From Escherichia phage vB_EcoM_112: a DNA stretch of 64,000 bases. The notes under the pieces were generated by a model. It had not been told where the DNA came from. It was given only the letters and a program-made list of their open reading frames with translations, and made no database searches. A program made the position numbers and the translations under genes. Below are positions 30,197 through 39,960 of the stretch, in pieces (position 1 is the first letter of the stretch; each line of letters starts with the position of its first letter). The stretch is taken from sequence record NC_024125.2. One strand, given 5' to 3'.

Positions 30197-31784
<1,588 letters not shown>

Positions 31785-31811
31785 AATAAAATGGGCCTTA
31801 CGGCCCACTCC

Positions 31812-32314
31812 TTAAAAATATTTTTTAAAACTCATCATAACTTTATCATCAACATCATTATCAATCTGTGCAACAAGGTAAGATGACAGTTCTACTTCTT
31901 GTGGCGCGGATTGAACATTATCAGAATTAAGATATTCACGAATCCAAGGATACGGATGTTTAACCGGAGCATCGGTAATTGGGCATGGAAGACCACACTG
32001 TTTCATACGAGATACAGTTAAGTAATCAATAAAGCTCCACATGCTATTTGTATTTAATCCAGGAACATCGCCATCTTTAAATAAATGAACTGCCCAATCT
32101 TTTTCTTGGCGGTTAACTTCCATGAAAATATCAACTGCTTCTTGTTCACACTCTTGAGCAATTTTAACCCATTCATCGCCATCAGTGCCAAGTTGAAGTT
32201 GACGAATAATATATTGAGTGCCTTTAAGGTGAAGCTGCTCATCACGTGCAATGAACTTCATAATCTTGGCATTACCTTCCATGATTTCCATGTTCTTATG
32301 GAAGTTGAAAGTAC
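31812..32314 (-). CDS. nrdB: Ribonucleotide reductase beta subunit, exon 2
   Basis: MEIMEGNAKIMKFIARDEQLHLKGTQY aligns to E. coli NrdB [20 protein letters not shown]; exon start inferred at 32314 so that junction reads YVSFA-C-TFNF. Confidence 0.85.
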
Positions 32315-33405
32315 CGTTATGTTCGATTGAGCTCGCTAATTCTCAACCCGTTCTCTTATGAACTGCTACATATTACTATGCAGACCAGACTATATCACAA
32401 TCCCAGAGGGATTCTCCCCATTTCGAGTCGCTTGACCCTACGTCCGAAGACTAGTCGTTGAACCTTGCTTTGCAATTGTCGCCGTGCCATCGTTTATATG
32501 TTGATGGTGATAAATCTTTCTTATCACAATATGGACAATTCAATTGAATTCTATTTGGATTTAATTTACATCTGTCATTATGTTTTAGATAAAATCCAGG
32601 ACCTTTACCAATGTGACCGCAGAAATCACATGTGATTTCTTTTTGTGCAGGATGGGTCCCGTTCTTAACCATTTCTAATGTTTTTGCTGATGTTCTTTTC
32701 TTATGGTCTTCTGACAAGAAATGATGTGAACCGTCATTTACCCGTTTTGATTGAGTTTCTGACTGCATTTTACCACCGCAAAATACATGAGTACCTTCTT
32801 TTATAGCTGCAATATTGCGTTCTTTAACTTTTGCAATATGCTCAGCTTGTTGAAAATTATGTATACCTAATGCAACTCTATTTAAATTAGATTTACGCTG
32901 TATTTCACCATCTAAAAGATGAAATGTACCATTTTCTATCTTAGATTTAATAGAGGCAATATTTTTAGCTCGTACTTCAGGGATATTAAAAATCTGGATT
33001 TCTCTAGATTTTGCGGCTTTAGAAGCTAATTCAGAAATTTCTTCAGGAGAATATTTCATTCTAAGCTTTATAGCATGACAAGCCTGGTAATCTTTTTGAG
33101 CTAAATGTATATCATAATGTTCCTGTATAGAAAGGCACATCAAATTATCTAAATCATTATTTTCACGGTTACCGTCTTTATGATGGATTTCGTATGTTCT
33201 TCCATCAGAATCTTTAGGTATAGGTCCGTTAGCATCTATCCAAATTTTTCTATAGTTCAATTGTGCATCCTCTTAAAAGTATAATCATATTTATATTATA
33301 CTAATTAAAGGTGCAAGCAAAACCTTGGCTGCTAGTTTTCCTATAAAGGACTTTCCAGCAATTAAAGGAGTTTTCGATAAACGTTACCGTTTAAAGGCGC
33401 ATTTT
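32315..33405 (-). ncRNA. Group I self-splicing intron in nrdB (1091 nt) carrying I-TevIII ORF
   Basis: Interrupts conserved NrdB sequence; exon 1 ends in U, intron ends in G; joining restores conserved FYVSFAC; internal HNH ORF. Confidence 0.8.
32451..33260 (-). CDS. I-TevIII: HNH homing endonuclease, full length (I-TevIII-like)
   Basis: 269 aa; HNH motif EIHHKDGNRENNDLDNLMCLSIQEH; C-terminal Cys-rich zinc-finger-like region (CDFCGH...CPYCDKK). Confidence 0.82.
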   Translation of the reverse strand: MNYRKIWIDANGPIPKDSDGRTYEIHHKDGNRENNDLDNLMCLSIQEHYDIHLAQKDYQACHAIKLRMKYSPEEISELASKAAKSREIQIFNIPEVRAKNIASIKSKIENGTFHLLDGEIQRKSNLNRVALGIHNFQQAEHIAKVKERNIAAIKEGTHVFCGGKMQSETQSKRVNDGSHHFLSEDHKKRTSAKTLEMVKNGTHPAQKEITCDFCGHIGKGPGFYLKHNDRCKLNPNRIQLNCPYCDKKDLSPSTYKRWHGDNCKARFND

Positions 33406-34081
33406 ACGCAAAAGATACATAAAAACGAATAGCTTCTAAGGCATTAATAACGTGCAAACAGAGGTAAAGAGATTTCATTAAAGCACGTTTAGCTTCGGCT
33501 TCTTGCTTAATAGCTCGGTTTAAACGAAAGTCGGCATCAGGAGATTCTTTAGCTAGTTCTACAAATTCTTTAGCATTTTCCCATTCACGGGTTTTAACCA
33601 AGACATCATCATAATAGCGACCAATAGATTCAGCACGTTTCATGATAGCTTCATCTAATACAATCTCATCAAATACCTTTGACGGATCAGTATAAAGATT
33701 TCGCATGATATGTGTATATGAACGGCTGTGAATAGTTTCACTAAAAGTCCACGTAGCAATCCATGTATCAAGGCTTGGGTCTGAAATTAATGACATAAGT
33801 ACAGCAGATGGCGCACGACCCTGAATGCTATCCAAAAGTGATTGATACTTCAGATTATTAGTAAAAATATTTTGCTGATACTGAGGAAGCTTATTAAACT
33901 GTGCAGCATCCATCATCAAGTTTACTTCTTCAGGACGCCAGAAAAATGACAACTGCTTTTCGGTCAAATCTTCAAAAACTTTATGACGTTGAATATCATA
34001 ACGCGCAATACCAAGACCTGAACCAAAAAACATGGGTTCTTTTAAAACATCAACTGGATTTGTATTAAAAACTGTGCTCAT
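33406..34081 (-). CDS. nrdB: Ribonucleotide reductase beta subunit, exon 1
   Basis: 225 codons ending ...EAIRFYVSFA, matching class Ia R2 up to the conserved FYVSFA segment. Confidence 0.85.
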
Positions 34082-34132
34082 AAATTTTCCGCTTAGTTAA
34101 TAGTTGGTGACTCGTCCGTGAGTCAAATTATA

Positions 34133-35122
34133 TCATAATTTACAGGATGAACAATCTTCAGCTTTTGGAGTTTCTATTTCATAATCATCAGTACCAGAAC
34201 CATCACGGGTATTATGATAATAGAAATTTTTTCCGCCAAAATACCAGAAATACAAAAGGTCATCAATCATTATTGACATTGGAACCTTTCCTTTAGGGAA
34301 GATTTGGGGGTCATAGTATGTATTCGCTGAAGCTGATTGACATACCCATTTCAGCATAATAGCTACCTGCGTAAGATAAGGTTTATTACCTTTCTTAGCT
34401 AATTTCCATGTATAATCATAGAGGTCTATGTTATGCTCAATATTGGGCACGACTTGATTAAAGGAGCCCTCTTTTGATTCTTTAACAGAGACTGGTCCAC
34501 GTGGAGGCTCGATACCGTTTGTACTGTTAGAAACTTGGGAAGATGACTCACATGGCATAAGTGCTGATAATGTGCTATTACGGATGCCAAAGAGCTTAAG
34601 GTCTTCCCGCAGCGACGACCAGTCACAAACGTATTTTGGAGCTGCGATTTGGTCAATCTTTTTATTGTACCAGTCGATAGGTAGTTCGCCTCGAGACCAA
34701 CGAGTGTCTGAATAATATTCGCAAGGTCCTTTTTCTTTGGCGAGCTTAATGGATGCTTTAATGAGTCCATACTGTAATCTCTCAAATAGTTCATGTGTTA
34801 AATCGTTAGCATCTTCATAAGAAGCAAAGTTACTTGCCAGCCAAGCTGCATAGTTAGTAACACCTACACCAAGGTTTCGACGCTTTTTAGCTTTTTCTGC
34901 TTCAGGAACTGGATATCCTTGGTAATCCAAAAGATTATCAAGAGCACGAACTTGAACTTCTGCCAATTCATTAATTTTATCTTGGTCTTGCCAGTCAAAA
35001 TTATCTAGTACGAATGCAGAGAGAGTACAAAGCCCCACTTCTCCCTTGTTTTCAATAACTTTTATTGTAGTATACTCATCATCTTCGTAAAATTCATCTA
35101 CAAATTCATAATCAATATTCAT
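34133..35122 (-). CDS. nrdA: Ribonucleotide reductase alpha subunit, C-terminal piece (NrdA-b-like)
   Basis: 329 aa; from ...IENKGEVGLCTLSAF aligns to E. coli NrdA DENGEIALCTLSAF onward, including C-terminal CxxC (DCSSCKL); has its own ATG and a 22-aa non-homologous N-terminal extension. Confidence 0.85.
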   Translation of the reverse strand: MNIDYEFVDEFYEDDEYTTIKVIENKGEVGLCTLSAFVLDNFDWQDQDKINELAEVQVRALDNLLDYQGYPVPEAEKAKKRRNLGVGVTNYAAWLASNFASYEDANDLTHELFERLQYGLIKASIKLAKEKGPCEYYSDTRWSRGELPIDWYNKKIDQIAAPKYVCDWSSLREDLKLFGIRNSTLSALMPCESSSQVSNSTNGIEPPRGPVSVKESKEGSFNQVVPNIEHNIDLYDYTWKLAKKGNKPYLTQVAIMLKWVCQSASANTYYDPQIFPKGKVPMSIMIDDLLYFWYFGGKNFYYHNTRDGSGTDDYEIETPKAEDCSSCKL

Positions 35123-35960
35123 TTAATTCTTTTACCTTTTTTCTAGTAATTCCTAAAGCTTTAGATGCTCGATGTATTGATTGATATTCTATACCGTTTA
35201 TTTTTACAGCAATTAAGTTATGGGGTTTTAATCCCTTTGGATGAGGTTTACTGACGAAAACTAAATTATCAAGTTCTGAAATCTTATCCAATTTCTTACA
35301 CTTAAATCCTTTGTGATGCGACCGTTTACCTTTACAAACGGCTGACATTGCAGATGGATTTAAATTATGCTCTTTACAAAATTCGTTAAGACCTCGATGA
35401 ATTTCCTCATGACCATCCGGAAATGTAAACACCCAAGATGTTTGAAGTCGAGATTTAACTTCTGGAGACATAGGAATACCTTTGTTCCAAGCTGGTTTGC
35501 CTTTATTATTTTCAGATACAGAAATAGCCAATTTTCTTCTAAGCCACCCATGGCGTTTATTGGTGTTCTTTCGTTCAATATTATCTTCAGAATAAACACA
35601 CATCATATTAGCGGCAAATATCAATTTATGATTATTTGGATATATCTTTACTAATAATTGATGAGCTATGTAATGCTCTTCTGGTGTCAAATCTACCAGG
35701 TTTTCCTTTGTATCAGAACCACCAATACACAGAGGTATAATATGGTGTGATTCGGTATAGCAATCTAATTTTCTATTCTTAGCTTTAGAAATAAGGTTAT
35801 TGTAAATTTTAAAATAATCCATAACTTTTCCTCTTGTTATGGATTATTTATTAACGGTCTGTGTACTTTATTTGCTTTGAATTATACCGCCAGGATTAGC
35901 TTCATAAAACTTAGCTACATCCGACTTCTTAATTTTGATTAAACGGGTTTGTTGGCTATT
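35057..35960 (-). mobile_element. ~0.9 kb insertion carrying the HNH endonuclease gene that interrupts nrdA
   Basis: Boundaries defined by loss of NrdA homology: after ...CCEIAIPTNDV (35961) and before IENKGEVGLC (35056). Confidence 0.75.
35112..35822 (-). CDS. Free-standing HNH homing endonuclease inserted in nrdA (MobE-like)
   Basis: 236 aa; HNH motif ESHHIIPLCIGGSDTKENLVDLTPEEHYIAH; NUMOD-like GKPAWNKGIPMSPEVKSRL; C-terminal helix-turn-helix-like segment; own SD AGAGGAAAAG. Confidence 0.85.
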   Translation of the reverse strand: MDYFKIYNNLISKAKNRKLDCYTESHHIIPLCIGGSDTKENLVDLTPEEHYIAHQLLVKIYPNNHKLIFAANMMCVYSEDNIERKNTNKRHGWLRRKLAISVSENNKGKPAWNKGIPMSPEVKSRLQTSWVFTFPDGHEEIHRGLNEFCKEHNLNPSAMSAVCKGKRSHHKGFKCKKLDKISELDNLVFVSKPHPKGLKPHNLIAVKINGIEYQSIHRASKALGITRKKVKELNEY

Positions 35961-37301
35961 CACATCATTTGTTGGAATAGCAATTTCACAGCACAAGTTA
36001 CTCTGACGAATAGGTGCCTTTTCACGAATAAATGGAGTATAGTTATTCGTATTATCAATGAACTGCACATAAATCCTTGCTGTTCCTGAACGTTCAGTCA
36101 TGAGCAATTCAAATAGTTCACGGGCTTTAATACGCTTTTTACGAATATTAGGGTCTTTTTCTGCTGCTTCGTATAATTCACGGAAACGGTCTTGGTCTTT
36201 AAAATAAGAATAATAAAGCTCGCCACCCATTTCATGCGGACTGAACAAAGTAATGTAATCGTTCTTTCCGAATCGTTCCATCATCAAATCATTCAGTTGA
36301 ACACCATAATCCATATGACGAATGCGGTTTTCTTCTACGCCTTTGTTATTTTTCAAAACGAGAAGATTTTCAACTTCCAAATGCCAAATAGGATAATAAG
36401 CAGTAGCAGCGCCGCCACGAATTCCACCCTGTGAACATGATTTAACAGCAGTCTGAAAATGTTTCCAAAAAGGAATAACACCAGTATGGCGTACTTCACC
36501 CATGCCAATCTTAGAACCTTCAGCACGAATCATACCAACGTTAATACCAATTCCAGCGCGTTTAGAGATATATTCAACAATTGAAGCGGAAGCCTTATTG
36601 ATAGACTTCAATGAATCTCCTGCCTCAATAACAACACATGAACTAAACTGTCGAGTCGGAGTACGGCAACCAGCCATAATAGGAGTTGGCAATGAAATCT
36701 GTCGAGTAGATACTGCTTCATAAAAACGAATAACATGTTTTAATCTATCAACAGGTTCATCTTGATGCAATGCCATTCCAATAGTCATAAATGCAAACTG
36801 TGGAGTTTCATAAATTTGACCAGTGGTTTTATCTTTAACTAGATATTTTTCTTTTAATTGCATCGCCCCGGAATAAGTAAATTCCATATCCCGTTCGTGC
36901 TTAATTTTTGATTCTAAAAATGTAATTTCTTCTGCTGAATATTTTGACAATAATTCAGGGTCATATTTACCTTCATTTACACAGTAAGAAATATGGTCAA
37001 TAAATGAACGTGGTTCATACTGCCCATAAACATGCTTACGAAGAGCAAACATTAAACAGCGTGCAGCTACATATTGATAATCAGGTTCTTCAACCGAAAT
37101 AGAATTCGCAGCAGCCTTAATGACAATAGTCTGAATGTCATCAGTTGTCATTCCATCACGGAGATATGATTTAATATTTTCATATAATTCATAAGGATCT
37201 ACTGATGTTCCCTCAGCTGCCCAAGATAAAACTTTAATAATTTTTTGTGGGTCAAAGCTCTGAGAAACACCACTACTTTTGATAACATTAATTAATTGCA
37301 T
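35868..37301 (-). CDS. nrdA: Ribonucleotide reductase alpha subunit, N-terminal piece (NrdA-a-like)
   Basis: 477 aa; class Ia R1 homology through active-site region PIRQSNLCCEIAIPTNDV, then 30 non-homologous residues and a stop. Confidence 0.85.
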   Translation of the reverse strand: MQLINVIKSSGVSQSFDPQKIIKVLSWAAEGTSVDPYELYENIKSYLRDGMTTDDIQTIVIKAAANSISVEEPDYQYVAARCLMFALRKHVYGQYEPRSFIDHISYCVNEGKYDPELLSKYSAEEITFLESKIKHERDMEFTYSGAMQLKEKYLVKDKTTGQIYETPQFAFMTIGMALHQDEPVDRLKHVIRFYEAVSTRQISLPTPIMAGCRTPTRQFSSCVVIEAGDSLKSINKASASIVEYISKRAGIGINVGMIRAEGSKIGMGEVRHTGVIPFWKHFQTAVKSCSQGGIRGGAATAYYPIWHLEVENLLVLKNNKGVEENRIRHMDYGVQLNDLMMERFGKNDYITLFSPHEMGGELYYSYFKDQDRFRELYEAAEKDPNIRKKRIKARELFELLMTERSGTARIYVQFIDNTNNYTPFIREKAPIRQSNLCCEIAIPTNDVNSQQTRLIKIKKSDVAKFYEANPGGIIQSK

Positions 37302-38143: not shown

Positions 38144-38585
38144 CATTATGTTCAGATAAGGTCGTTAATCTTACCCCGGAATTATATCCAGCTGCATGTC
38201 ACCATGCAGATCAGACTATATCTCCATCTTGATAAAGCAAGATGTCTATCGTTTCGAGTCACTTGACTCTACTCCCTAAAGGGATAGTCGTTAGGCATTT
38301 ATGTAGAACCAATTCCAGTTATCAGATTTTACACGATAAGTAACTAATCCAGACGAAATTTTAAAATGCCTCTTCCATCTCTTTTCAAAATCTTTAGCAC
38401 TTCCTACATATACTTTATTGTTTAAAGTATTTTTAATCTGATAAATTCCGCTTTTCATAAATACCTCTTTAAATATAGAAGTATTATTAAAGGGCAGTCC
38501 TACAATTTAGCACGGGATTGTCTACTAGAGAGGTTCCCCGTTTAGATAGATTACAAGTATAAGTCACCTTATACTCAGGCCTCAA
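38144..38585 (-). ncRNA. td group I intron, shortened (442 nt) by deletion within the I-TevI ORF
   Basis: 5' end TAATTGAGGCCTGAGTATAAGGTGACTTATACTTGTAATCTATCTAAACGGGGAACC and 3' end ...GGGGTAAGATTAACGACCTTATCTGAACATAATG match the T4 td intron as I recall it. Confidence 0.85.
38291..38458 (-). pseudogene. I-TevI: I-TevI remnant: in-frame fusion of N-terminal 34 and C-terminal 21 codons (55 aa)
   Basis: Hand-translated MKSGIYQIKNTLNNKVYVGSAKDFEKRWKRHFKISSGLVTYRVKSDNWNWFYINA; keeps GIY-YIG start and C-terminal tail but lacks catalytic and DNA-binding domains. Confidence 0.75.

Positions 38586-39960
<1,375 letters not shown>

What the first reader, a model, noticed from the sequence alone, without database searches (positions are those of the whole stretch)
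32315..33405. nrdB group I intron carries a full-length HNH endonuclease (I-TevIII-like)
NrdB homology is interrupted after ...RFYVSFA and resumes at ...TFNFHKNMEIMEGNAKIM. Splicing at a U at the exon 1 end and a G at the intron end restores the conserved FYVSFAC segment. The 1091-nt intervening sequence encodes a 269-aa protein with the HNH motif (EIHHKDGNRENNDLDNLMCLSIQEH) and a Cys-rich C-terminal zinc-finger-like region. As I recall, laboratory T4 carries a truncated, inactive version of this intron ORF and phage RB3 the full-length active one; this phage has the full-length form. Together with the two other HNH/GIY-YIG elements in this same block, the nrd-td region is dense in mobile endonucleases.
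Basis: partly seen in the sequence, partly recalled or inferred. Interest (0 to 1): 0.55.

Follow-up and report, generated by a model that had tools for sequence, protein, structure and literature searches.

The report
Known RB3-type nrdB intron with I-TevIII
The ribonucleotide reductase small-subunit gene of this T4-like phage is interrupted by the already well-studied self-splicing nrdB intron, in the full-length form known from phage RB3, which carries the intact homing endonuclease I-TevIII; it is real but ordinary.

Summary
nrdB lies on the minus strand: exon 1 at 34081..33406, a 1091-nt intervening sequence at 33405..32315, exon 2 at 32314..31812. Removing the intervening sequence gives one 392-aa NrdB reading through FYVSFACTFNFHK.

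The intervening sequence differs from the phage RB3 nrdB intron at 2 of 1091 positions. It encodes a 269-aa protein that is 268/269 identical to RB3 I-TevIII and 100% identical to the copy in Yersinia phage phiD1. All residues shown by mutagenesis to be needed are present: H26, H27, N39, H48 and two CX2CX12-13HX3C zinc fingers.

The RNA has every group I helix (P1 to P9.2, including P7.1 and P7.2), a U•G pair at the 5' splice site and a terminal G. The ORF loops out of P6a behind a late promoter and a hairpin that sequesters its ribosome-binding site.

T4 lacks 491 nt of this ORF. The deletion lies between imperfect direct repeats GAAGA(A/C)CATA.

About 125 phage records carry the intron, and 86 of them the full-length ORF.

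Three side observations:
- nrdA is split by a mobE-like endonuclease gene, as in phage Aeh1.
- The td intron has lost most of I-TevI.
- The neighbouring GIY-YIG gene is denA, not a mobile element.

The parts
33406..34081 (-). nrdB exon 1 (225 codons + 1 nt), ends ...GCG U
   Evidence: ORF list. Pfam Ribonuc_red_sm 6.9e-20. Splice reconstruction.
32315..33405 (-). Group I (IA2-type) intron, 1091 nt, RB3 form
   Evidence: 2 differences from the RB3 intron. Rfam Intron_gpI partial hit, 33.9 bits, E 2.5e-6. All core helices found.
31812..32314 (-). nrdB exon 2 (starts GU ACU UUC ...; stop at 31812-31814)
   Evidence: Pfam Ribonuc_red_sm 7.3e-11.
32451..33260 (-). I-TevIII ORF, 269 aa, TTG start. 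Its last 7 codons and the stop codon overlap the ribozyme strands P6a', P6', J6/7 and P7.
   Evidence: Residue numbering matches Robbins et al. 2007. 100% identical to the phiD1 protein.
33117..33185 (-). HNH catalytic motif, residues 26-48 (H26, H27, N39, H48)
   Evidence: In RB3 I-TevIII, alanine substitution of these four residues abolishes cleavage (PMC1865063).
32568..32630 (-). Zinc finger 1, CDFCGHIGKGPGFYLKHNDRC (residues 211-231)
   Evidence: C211/C214 are needed for zinc and DNA binding.
32472..32537 (-). Zinc finger 2, CPYCDKKDLSPSTYKRWHGDNC (residues 242-263)
   Evidence: C242/C245 are needed for zinc and DNA binding.
33313..33405 (-). 5' half of the ribozyme core: P1 3' strand/IGS (33400-33397), P2 (33393-33378), P3 5' (33370-33365), P4-P5 (33360-33330), P6 5' (33329-33327), P6a 5' (33320-33313)
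   Evidence: MFE fold of the intron with the P6a loop removed. Helix table.
32315..32473 (-). 3' half of the ribozyme core: P6a'/P6' (32473-32462), P7 (32456-32452 with 32392-32388), P7.1, P7.2, P3' (32419-32414), P8 (32412-32400), P9 (32383-32366), P9.1, P9.2 (32348-32325), terminal G at 32315
   Evidence: A-U in the window versus G-C in T4 at 32377/32372 is a compensatory change in P9.
33288..33295 (-). T4 late-promoter consensus TATAAATA, 28 nt upstream of the TTG start
   Evidence: This stretch has no difference from T4, where the intron-ORF promoters were mapped by primer extension (PMC2988022). The motif alone is not enriched in the window (12 found, 9 expected).
33254..33324 (-). RNA hairpin that pairs the Shine-Dalgarno AAGAGG (33274-33269) and part of the UUG start; the late promoter sits in its loop
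   Evidence: Fold -17.9 kcal/mol, z -3.73, 0 of 200 shuffles as stable. [quoted passage not shown]
33303..33322 (-). Putative I-TevIII operator: 15/20 identity to the homing site (positions -8..+12 around the insertion site)
   Evidence: 5 of 500 shuffles reach 15/20. Proposed, not demonstrated, in PMC2988022.
32702..33192 (-). The 491 nt that T4 lacks (codes for the HNH domain and linker), bounded by imperfect direct repeats GAAGAACATA (33202-33193) and GAAGACCATA (32711-32702)

Best explanation
This is the RB3-type allele of the T-even phage nrdB group I intron. The pre-mRNA folds into an IA2-type ribozyme. The ribozyme uses guanosine to cut after the U at 33406 and then joins it to the G at 32314, which restores a continuous 392-aa NrdB. 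Looped out of helix P6a is the gene for I-TevIII. This homing endonuclease has an N-terminal HNH nuclease domain and a C-terminal two-zinc-finger DNA-binding and dimerisation domain. [quoted passage not shown] Expression is probably confined to late infection. In long early or middle transcripts, a hairpin hides the ribosome-binding site. Transcripts started at the TATAAATA late promoter inside that hairpin cannot form it. Shown here: the sequence anatomy, the identity to the characterised element, and the retention of all required residues and helices. Inferred from the RB3 and T4 experiments: splicing, cleavage, homing and late expression in this phage.
For: (1) Removing 33405..32315 restores an uninterrupted NrdB across the conserved FYVSFAC segment. 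(2) The intron differs from the RB3 intron at 2 of 1091 nt. The flanking exons differ at 31 of 1179 nt (Fisher p 1.8e-7), as expected for a recently transferred mobile element. (3) I-TevIII is 269 aa, 268/269 identical to RB3 and 269/269 to phiD1, and keeps H26, H27, N39, H48 and both zinc fingers. These are the residues whose mutation abolishes cleavage or binding in RB3 I-TevIII, and the RB3 intron homes in an I-TevIII-dependent way (PMC1865063). (4) Pfam HNH_3 matches at 6e-13. (5) Helices P1, P2, P3, P4, P5, P6, P6a, P7, P7.1, P7.2, P8, P9, P9.1 and P9.2 are all present, in the same order as in the td and nrdD introns. P3, P4 and P8 differ in sequence but stay fully paired. P1 has a U•G pair at the splice site, and the last intron base is G. 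(6) In P9, an A-U pair here replaces a G-C pair in T4. (7) Rfam Intron_gpI hits the P7-P9 part at E 2.5e-6. The experimentally proven T4 intron scores about the same. (8) The hairpin over the Shine-Dalgarno has z -3.7, and the late promoter lies in its loop. This matches the published regulation.
Against: Nothing here measures RNA or protein. The Rfam match (33.9 bits) is below the gathering score of 50, though the same holds for the proven T4 intron (35.7 bits). Residue 23 is Tyr here and Asp in the biochemically studied RB3 enzyme, three residues before catalytic H26, and its effect is untested. TATAAATA is not enriched in the window (12 found, 9 expected by chance), so the promoter assignment rests on identity with the mapped T4 sequence.
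Confidence: 0.95

Rival explanations
1. The intron is the RB3 type, but this I-TevIII allele (Tyr23 instead of Asp23) is catalytically impaired. The intron would then splice but no longer home by itself.
For: The single amino-acid difference from the characterised RB3 enzyme lies three residues before catalytic H26. Homing endonuclease genes do decay in these phages: T4 I-TevIII, and I-TevI in this same window.
Against: The Tyr23 protein is identical in phiD1. Many full-length tblastn hits sit at 99.6%, the same level as phiD1, whereas the RB3, RB6 and RB10 records sit at 99.3%. This suggests Tyr23 is the commoner allele and Asp23 the RB3-group variant. The ORF is intact over 269 codons, with only 2 nt changes from RB3. 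Residue 23 is not among the residues identified as catalytic.
Confidence: 0.04
2. nrdB is a gene in pieces. Two separately translated NrdB fragments flank a free-standing HNH gene, as many GenBank records annotate it (nrdB_1/nrdB_2), with no RNA splicing.
For: Several deposited genomes annotate two separate nrdB CDSs and a 'hypothetical protein' between them. A true genes-in-pieces arrangement does occur next door in nrdA.
Against: A complete group I core surrounds the ORF. The first ATG of the downstream piece (32291) lies 8 codons past the junction, so translation from it would drop conserved residues. The exon 1 frame stops at a codon made from the last exon base and the first two intron bases. 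The homologous T4 and RB3 introns are treated in the literature as self-splicing (PMC2790892; PMC1865063). The original demonstrations by Gott, Shub and Belfort 1986 and Sjöberg et al. 1986 are cited from my own knowledge.
Confidence: 0.01

Closest known systems
Phage RB3 nrdB intron with I-TevIII (Eddy & Gold 1991; Robbins et al. 2007, PMC1865063)
   Same: Same gene, same insertion site, same 1091-nt length. 1089/1091 nt identical. ORF of 269 aa, 268 identical. Same HNH residues, zinc fingers, promoter and hairpin.
   Different: Tyr23 instead of Asp23 and one silent change. The flanking nrdB exons are 2.6% different. RB3 has mobE between nrdA and nrdB and an unsplit nrdA; this phage does not.
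Phage T4 nrdB intron (598 nt) with defective I-TevIII
   Same: Same insertion site and ribozyme core. The 5' 209 nt, including the promoter, hairpin and start codon, are identical except for one 1-nt indel.
   Different: T4 lacks 491 nt (window 33192..32702). This removes the HNH domain and shifts the frame, leaving a 97-aa C-terminal remnant. In P9, T4 has G-C where this intron has A-U. T4's intron relies on MobE for trans-homing (PMC2790892).
T4 td intron/I-TevI and nrdD (sunY) intron/I-TevII
   Same: Same IA2-type core with P7.1 and P7.2. Identical P7 (GACUA/UAGUC) and J8/7 (GAUAUAGUCUG). Similar 3' ends. Late-promoter plus hairpin control of the intron ORF.
   Different: Those introns carry GIY-YIG endonucleases, not HNH. 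P3, P4 and P8 have different sequences. In nrdD the ORF loops out of P9.1, not P6a.
I-HmuI (SPO1 intron HNH endonuclease)
   Same: Intron-encoded phage HNH enzyme with an extended DNA-binding region (as compared in PMC1865063).
   Different: I-HmuI nicks as a monomer, whereas I-TevIII makes a double-strand break as a dimer and uses two zinc fingers. There is no detectable sequence match to any solved structure.

Membership tests
Group I self-splicing intron (IA2 type of the T-even phages) | Excision restores a continuous, conserved host ORF | tested here: met
   The spliced ORF is 392 aa with no stop, matches T4 NrdB throughout and reads FYVSFACTFNF across the junction.
Group I self-splicing intron (IA2 type of the T-even phages) | P1 helix between the exon 1 end and the internal guide sequence, with a U•G pair at the 5' splice site | tested here: met
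   Exon GCGU pairs with intron nt 6-9 GCGC, and U(-1) pairs with G6.
Group I self-splicing intron (IA2 type of the T-even phages) | Terminal G at the 3' end of the intron | tested here: met
   The intron ends ...AACAUAACG at 32315.
Group I self-splicing intron (IA2 type of the T-even phages) | Conserved catalytic core P3-P9 with the P3/P7 pseudoknot, plus P7.1 and P7.2 of subgroup IA2 | tested here: met
   All helices are fully paired and in the canonical order. P7 GACUA/UAGUC is identical to td and nrdD. P3, P4 and P8 stay paired with different sequences. The comparison is hand-registered on three sequences only.
Group I self-splicing intron (IA2 type of the T-even phages) | Match to Rfam RF00028 at the gathering score | tested here: inconclusive
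   33.9 bits (E 2.5e-6) against a gathering score of 50, and only the P7-P9 part aligns well because the 839-nt P6a insert breaks the model. The proven T4 intron also fails, at 35.7 bits.
Group I self-splicing intron (IA2 type of the T-even phages) | Guanosine-dependent self-splicing | not testable with these tools
   Needs in vitro transcription and splicing, or RT-PCR. Established for the T4 homologue in the literature.
I-TevIII (HNH homing endonuclease of the nrdB intron) | HNH (ββα-Me) catalytic motif with H26, H27, N39, H48 | tested here: met
   Pfam HNH_3 at 6e-13. All four residues are present. They are essential in RB3 I-TevIII.
I-TevIII (HNH homing endonuclease of the nrdB intron) | Two C-terminal CX2CX12-13HX3C zinc fingers | tested here: met
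   Residues 211-231 and 242-263, as in PMC1865063.
I-TevIII (HNH homing endonuclease of the nrdB intron) | Orthology: near-identity to the characterised RB3 protein, and the same location in the nrdB intron | tested here: met
   268/269 identical to RB3, with the same ORF position in the P6a loop.
I-TevIII (HNH homing endonuclease of the nrdB intron) | [quoted passage not shown] | not testable with these tools
   Shown for RB3. Not measurable here.

The most novel reading that the evidence does not exclude
The most novel reading the evidence leaves open concerns the nrd-td block as a whole, not the intron. The block shows three endonuclease elements at three different stages: an intact I-TevIII that spread recently (intron 0.18% diverged from RB3, exons 2.6%), an I-TevI that has been deleted, and a mobE-like gene that has moved into nrdA and split it, as in Aeh1. 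The common Tyr23 allele of I-TevIII might also differ in activity or target preference from the Asp23 enzyme that was studied.
Probability: 0.08. Interest if true: 0.3.

Novelty: already known. Interest (0 to 1): 0.1.

Why it matters
It matters little for discovery. The element, its enzyme, its regulation and its T4 deletion derivative have been described since 1991 and 2007, and an identical protein is already in public phage genomes. The practical value is for annotation. Many deposited T4-like genomes label the two exons as separate nrdB genes and the endonuclease as hypothetical; they should be joined and named. The sequence also adds to the evidence that the intron moves between phages: it is far more similar to RB3's intron than the surrounding exons are to RB3's exons.

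Tried and rejected
- The Rfam search of the whole window at gathering thresholds found nothing. Only the permissive search showed the group I match.
- I aligned the three ORF-deleted intron cores with MAFFT. It misaligned the J6/7-P7 segment of nrdB, so I did not use it for automated pair counting. I tabulated the helices by explicit string positions instead.
- The sigma-70 promoter and terminator scan of the region was no better than shuffles.
- TATAAATA is not enriched in the window. The late-promoter call therefore rests on identity with T4, not on the motif.
- The PDB sequence search with I-TevIII found no relative.
- The Pfam FlgM hit at residues 74-114 (26.2 bits, cutoff 25) was considered and set aside as a probable artefact of the helical, repetitive linker.
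- I considered that the nrdA insertion might be another group I intron. There is no Rfam signal at E<=0.1, only about 200 nt lie outside the HNH ORF, and the arrangement matches the Aeh1 split gene.

Full report
**1. Observation**

The region is on the minus strand. The ORF list shows:
- an NrdB N-terminal ORF at 34081..33404, ending ...RFYVSFA plus a stop;
- a 269-aa ORF at 33260..32451;
- an NrdB C-terminal ORF whose first ATG is at 32291.

Reading the sequence and reconstructing the splice gives three parts:
- exon 1, 34081..33406 (676 nt, ending GCGU);
- an intervening sequence, 33405..32315 (1091 nt, AAAAUGCGCC...AACAUAACG);
- exon 2, 32314..31812.

Joining the exons gives a 392-aa protein with no internal stop. 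It reads ...RFYVSFACTFNFHKNMEIMEGNAKIM... and is collinear with T4 NrdB. Both halves match Pfam Ribonuc_red_sm, and the internal ORF matches HNH_3 at 6e-13.

**2. Identity**

A 1221-nt query spanning the intron is 99.7% identical over its full length to phage RB3 (and to RB5, 6, 7, 9 and 10). In those records the features are annotated nrdB and I-TevIII.

- Base by base, the intron differs from RB3 at two positions. 33194 gives Tyr23 instead of Asp23, and 32910 is silent.
- The two exons differ from RB3 at 31 of 1179 positions (Fisher p 1.8e-7).
- The nearest exon differences are 193 nt upstream and 5 nt downstream of the splice sites.
- The protein is 100% identical to the copy in Yersinia phage phiD1 and differs by one residue from the copy in fPS-2.
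- The tblastn identities suggest Tyr23 is the commoner allele. Many full-length hits sit at 99.6%, the same level as phiD1, whereas the listed RB3-group records sit at 99.3%.

**3. T4 comparison**

T4's annotated nrdB intron is 598 nt and carries a 97-aa 'defective' I-TevIII.
- Relative to the window, T4 lacks 491 nt (33192..32702) and has two 1-nt indels.
- The deletion junction lies in imperfect direct repeats: GAAGAACATA at 33202-33193 and GAAGACCATA at 32711-32702.
- Because 491 is not a multiple of three, the HNH domain is lost and the frame shifts. Only the zinc-finger end remains.
- This matches the literature: T4 I-TevIII is inactive through a large deletion, and RB3's is functional (PMC2988022; PMC2790892).

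**4. The enzyme**

Robbins et al. 2007 (PMC1865063) established the following for RB3:
- The RB3 intron homes in an I-TevIII-dependent way.
- H26A, H27A, N39A and H48A abolish cleavage.
- C211/C214 and C242/C245 form two CX2CX12-13HX3C zinc fingers needed for DNA binding.
- The protein acts as a dimer, through a C-terminal interface.

In the window protein all eight residues sit at exactly those numbers, and both finger motifs are intact. This also supports the TTG at 33260 as the true start. No solved structure is detectably related by sequence.

**5. The ribozyme**

Rfam finds nothing at gathering thresholds. A permissive search gives Intron_gpI at 32606..32366, with 33.9 bits and E 2.5e-6. 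The confident alignment covers J6/7, P7, P3', P8, J8/7 and P9. As a control, the experimentally proven T4 nrdB intron scores 35.7 bits, also below threshold.

I removed the P6a loop (33312..32474) and folded the remaining 256 nt. The minimum-energy structure recovers P2, P3, P4, P5, P6, P6a, P7.1, P7.2, P8, P9, P9.1 and P9.2. P7 forms a pseudoknot with P3, so I checked it separately.

An explicit helix table for this intron, the window's td intron and the T4 nrdD intron shows:
- every helix is fully paired and in the same order;
- P7 is the same in all three (GACUA/UAGUC);
- P3, P4 and P8 have different sequences but keep their pairing;
- P1 has U(-1)•G6, and the last intron base is G.

Between this intron and T4's, P9 carries A-U (32377/32372) where T4 has G-C, a compensatory change.

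The last seven codons and the stop of I-TevIII (TGC AAA GCA AGG TTC AAC GAC TAG) double as P6a', P6', J6/7 and the 5' strand of P7.

**6. Regulation**

Upstream of the TTG lies a Shine-Dalgarno AAGAGG, and 28 nt upstream lies TATAAATA, the T4 late-promoter consensus (33295..33288).

The RNA from 33325 to 33250 folds at -17.9 kcal/mol (z -3.73; none of 200 shuffles does as well). The Shine-Dalgarno pairs with CCUUU, part of the UUG start is paired, and TATAAATA sits in the loop.

The review PMC2988022 describes this arrangement for I-TevI, II and III. Long early or middle transcripts hide the ribosome-binding site. Late transcripts start inside the hairpin and are translatable. This stretch has no difference from T4.

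The motif alone is not statistically enriched in the window (12 found, 9 expected), so this step rests on homology.

A 15/20 match between the homing site (-8..+12) and 33322..33303 is reached by 5 of 500 shuffles. It corresponds to the putative autorepression operator proposed, but not demonstrated, for I-TevIII.

**7. Distribution**

In the phage collection:
- 125 records contain the 5' 209 nt of the intron;
- 86 encode at least 80% of I-TevIII, and a further set have only the C-terminal third, as T4 does;
- 668 records match the exon-flanked query.

The full-length form is therefore a minority allele, but a common one, among T4-like phages of Escherichia, Shigella, Yersinia, Salmonella and Klebsiella.

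**8. Verdict**

The finding is real and correctly interpreted. It is the known RB3-type nrdB intron with intact I-TevIII. Splicing, cleavage and homing in this particular phage are inferred from near-identity to the characterised element, not measured. Novelty: already known. Interest: low.

**9. Surroundings**

- **nrdA is split.** NrdA-N (37301..35868) is T4 residues 1-449 plus a 28-aa basic tail (pI 10.0). A 236-aa mobE-like HNH gene follows (35822..35112; 49% identical to RB3 MobE over the first 98 residues). NrdA-C (35122..34133) starts with a 26-aa acidic head (pI 4.05 computed over its first 29 residues) and continues with the equivalent of T4 residues 452-754.
- **The split matches phage Aeh1.** It lies between the equivalents of E. 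coli Cys439 and Cys462, the endonuclease gene overlaps the downstream piece, and the tail charges match. The same features are reported for Aeh1 nrdA-a/mobE/nrdA-b, where the tails are essential for assembly (PMC3045599). No group I signal is present there. The same arrangement occurs in fPS-2 and others.
- **No mobE between nrdA and nrdB.** The canonical site holds no mobE here.
- **The td intron is short.** It runs 38588..38144 and is 445 nt, against 1016 nt in T4. I-TevI is internally deleted. The same form occurs in vB_EcoM-G28 and FL18.
- **The GIY-YIG gene is denA.** The gene at 31808..31374 is identical to T4's denA.

Noticed in passing
window 34133..37301 (minus strand): nrdA is split into two genes by a 236-aa mobE-like HNH endonuclease gene (35822..35112). 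NrdA-N is T4 residues 1-449 plus a 28-aa basic tail (pI 10.0). NrdA-C is a 26-aa acidic head (pI 4.05 computed over its first 29 residues) plus the equivalent of T4 residues 452-754. The split lies between the Cys439 and Cys462 equivalents and the endonuclease gene overlaps NrdA-C by 11 nt. Position, overlap and tail charges match the genes-in-pieces nrdA of Aeromonas phage Aeh1 (PMC3045599). There is no group I signal. I found it described only for Aeh1 in the papers searched, yet about 33 phage records carry an endonuclease at least 80% identical.
   Followed up: partly
window 34082..34132: Only about 51 nt separate nrdA from nrdB. The mobE gene that sits here in T4 and RB3, and that drives trans-homing of T4's defective nrdB intron, is absent.
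   Followed up: partly
window 38144..38588 (minus strand): The td group I intron is only 445 nt, against 1016 nt in T4. I-TevI keeps its first 33 codons and then is deleted and out of frame. This is the reverse of T4, which has I-TevI intact and I-TevIII deleted. The same 445-nt form occurs in phages vB_EcoM-G28 and FL18. Rfam Intron_gpI scores 40 bits, below the gathering score.
   Followed up: partly
window 31374..31808 (minus strand): The GIY-YIG ORF just downstream of nrdB is denA (endonuclease II), 144/144 identical to T4. It is a host-DNA-degrading enzyme, not a homing endonuclease gene.
   Followed up: yes
window 32640..32980 (I-TevIII residues ~95-206): The linker between the HNH domain and the zinc fingers contains five tandem modules of about 22 aa, each ending in G[T/S/I][H/F] (at residues 111, 132, 156, 177 and 201). 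A Pfam FlgM hit just above its cutoff (residues 74-114) probably reflects this helical repeat region.
   Followed up: no
window 31812..34081 vs RB3 (L002): The intron is 0.18% diverged from RB3 and the nrdB exons 2.6% (p 1.8e-7). An identical tract extends 193 nt upstream of the insertion site but only 4 nt downstream. This looks like an asymmetric co-conversion footprint on the side where I-TevIII cuts.
   Followed up: partly
window 31777..31903 (minus strand): A weak Rfam L20_leader match (25.1 bits, E 0.046, far below its gathering score) covers the nrdB 3' end and the GC-rich hairpin GGGCCGUAAGGCCC. It is most likely just the nrdB-denA intergenic terminator, which fPS-2 annotates at the same place.
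   Followed up: no
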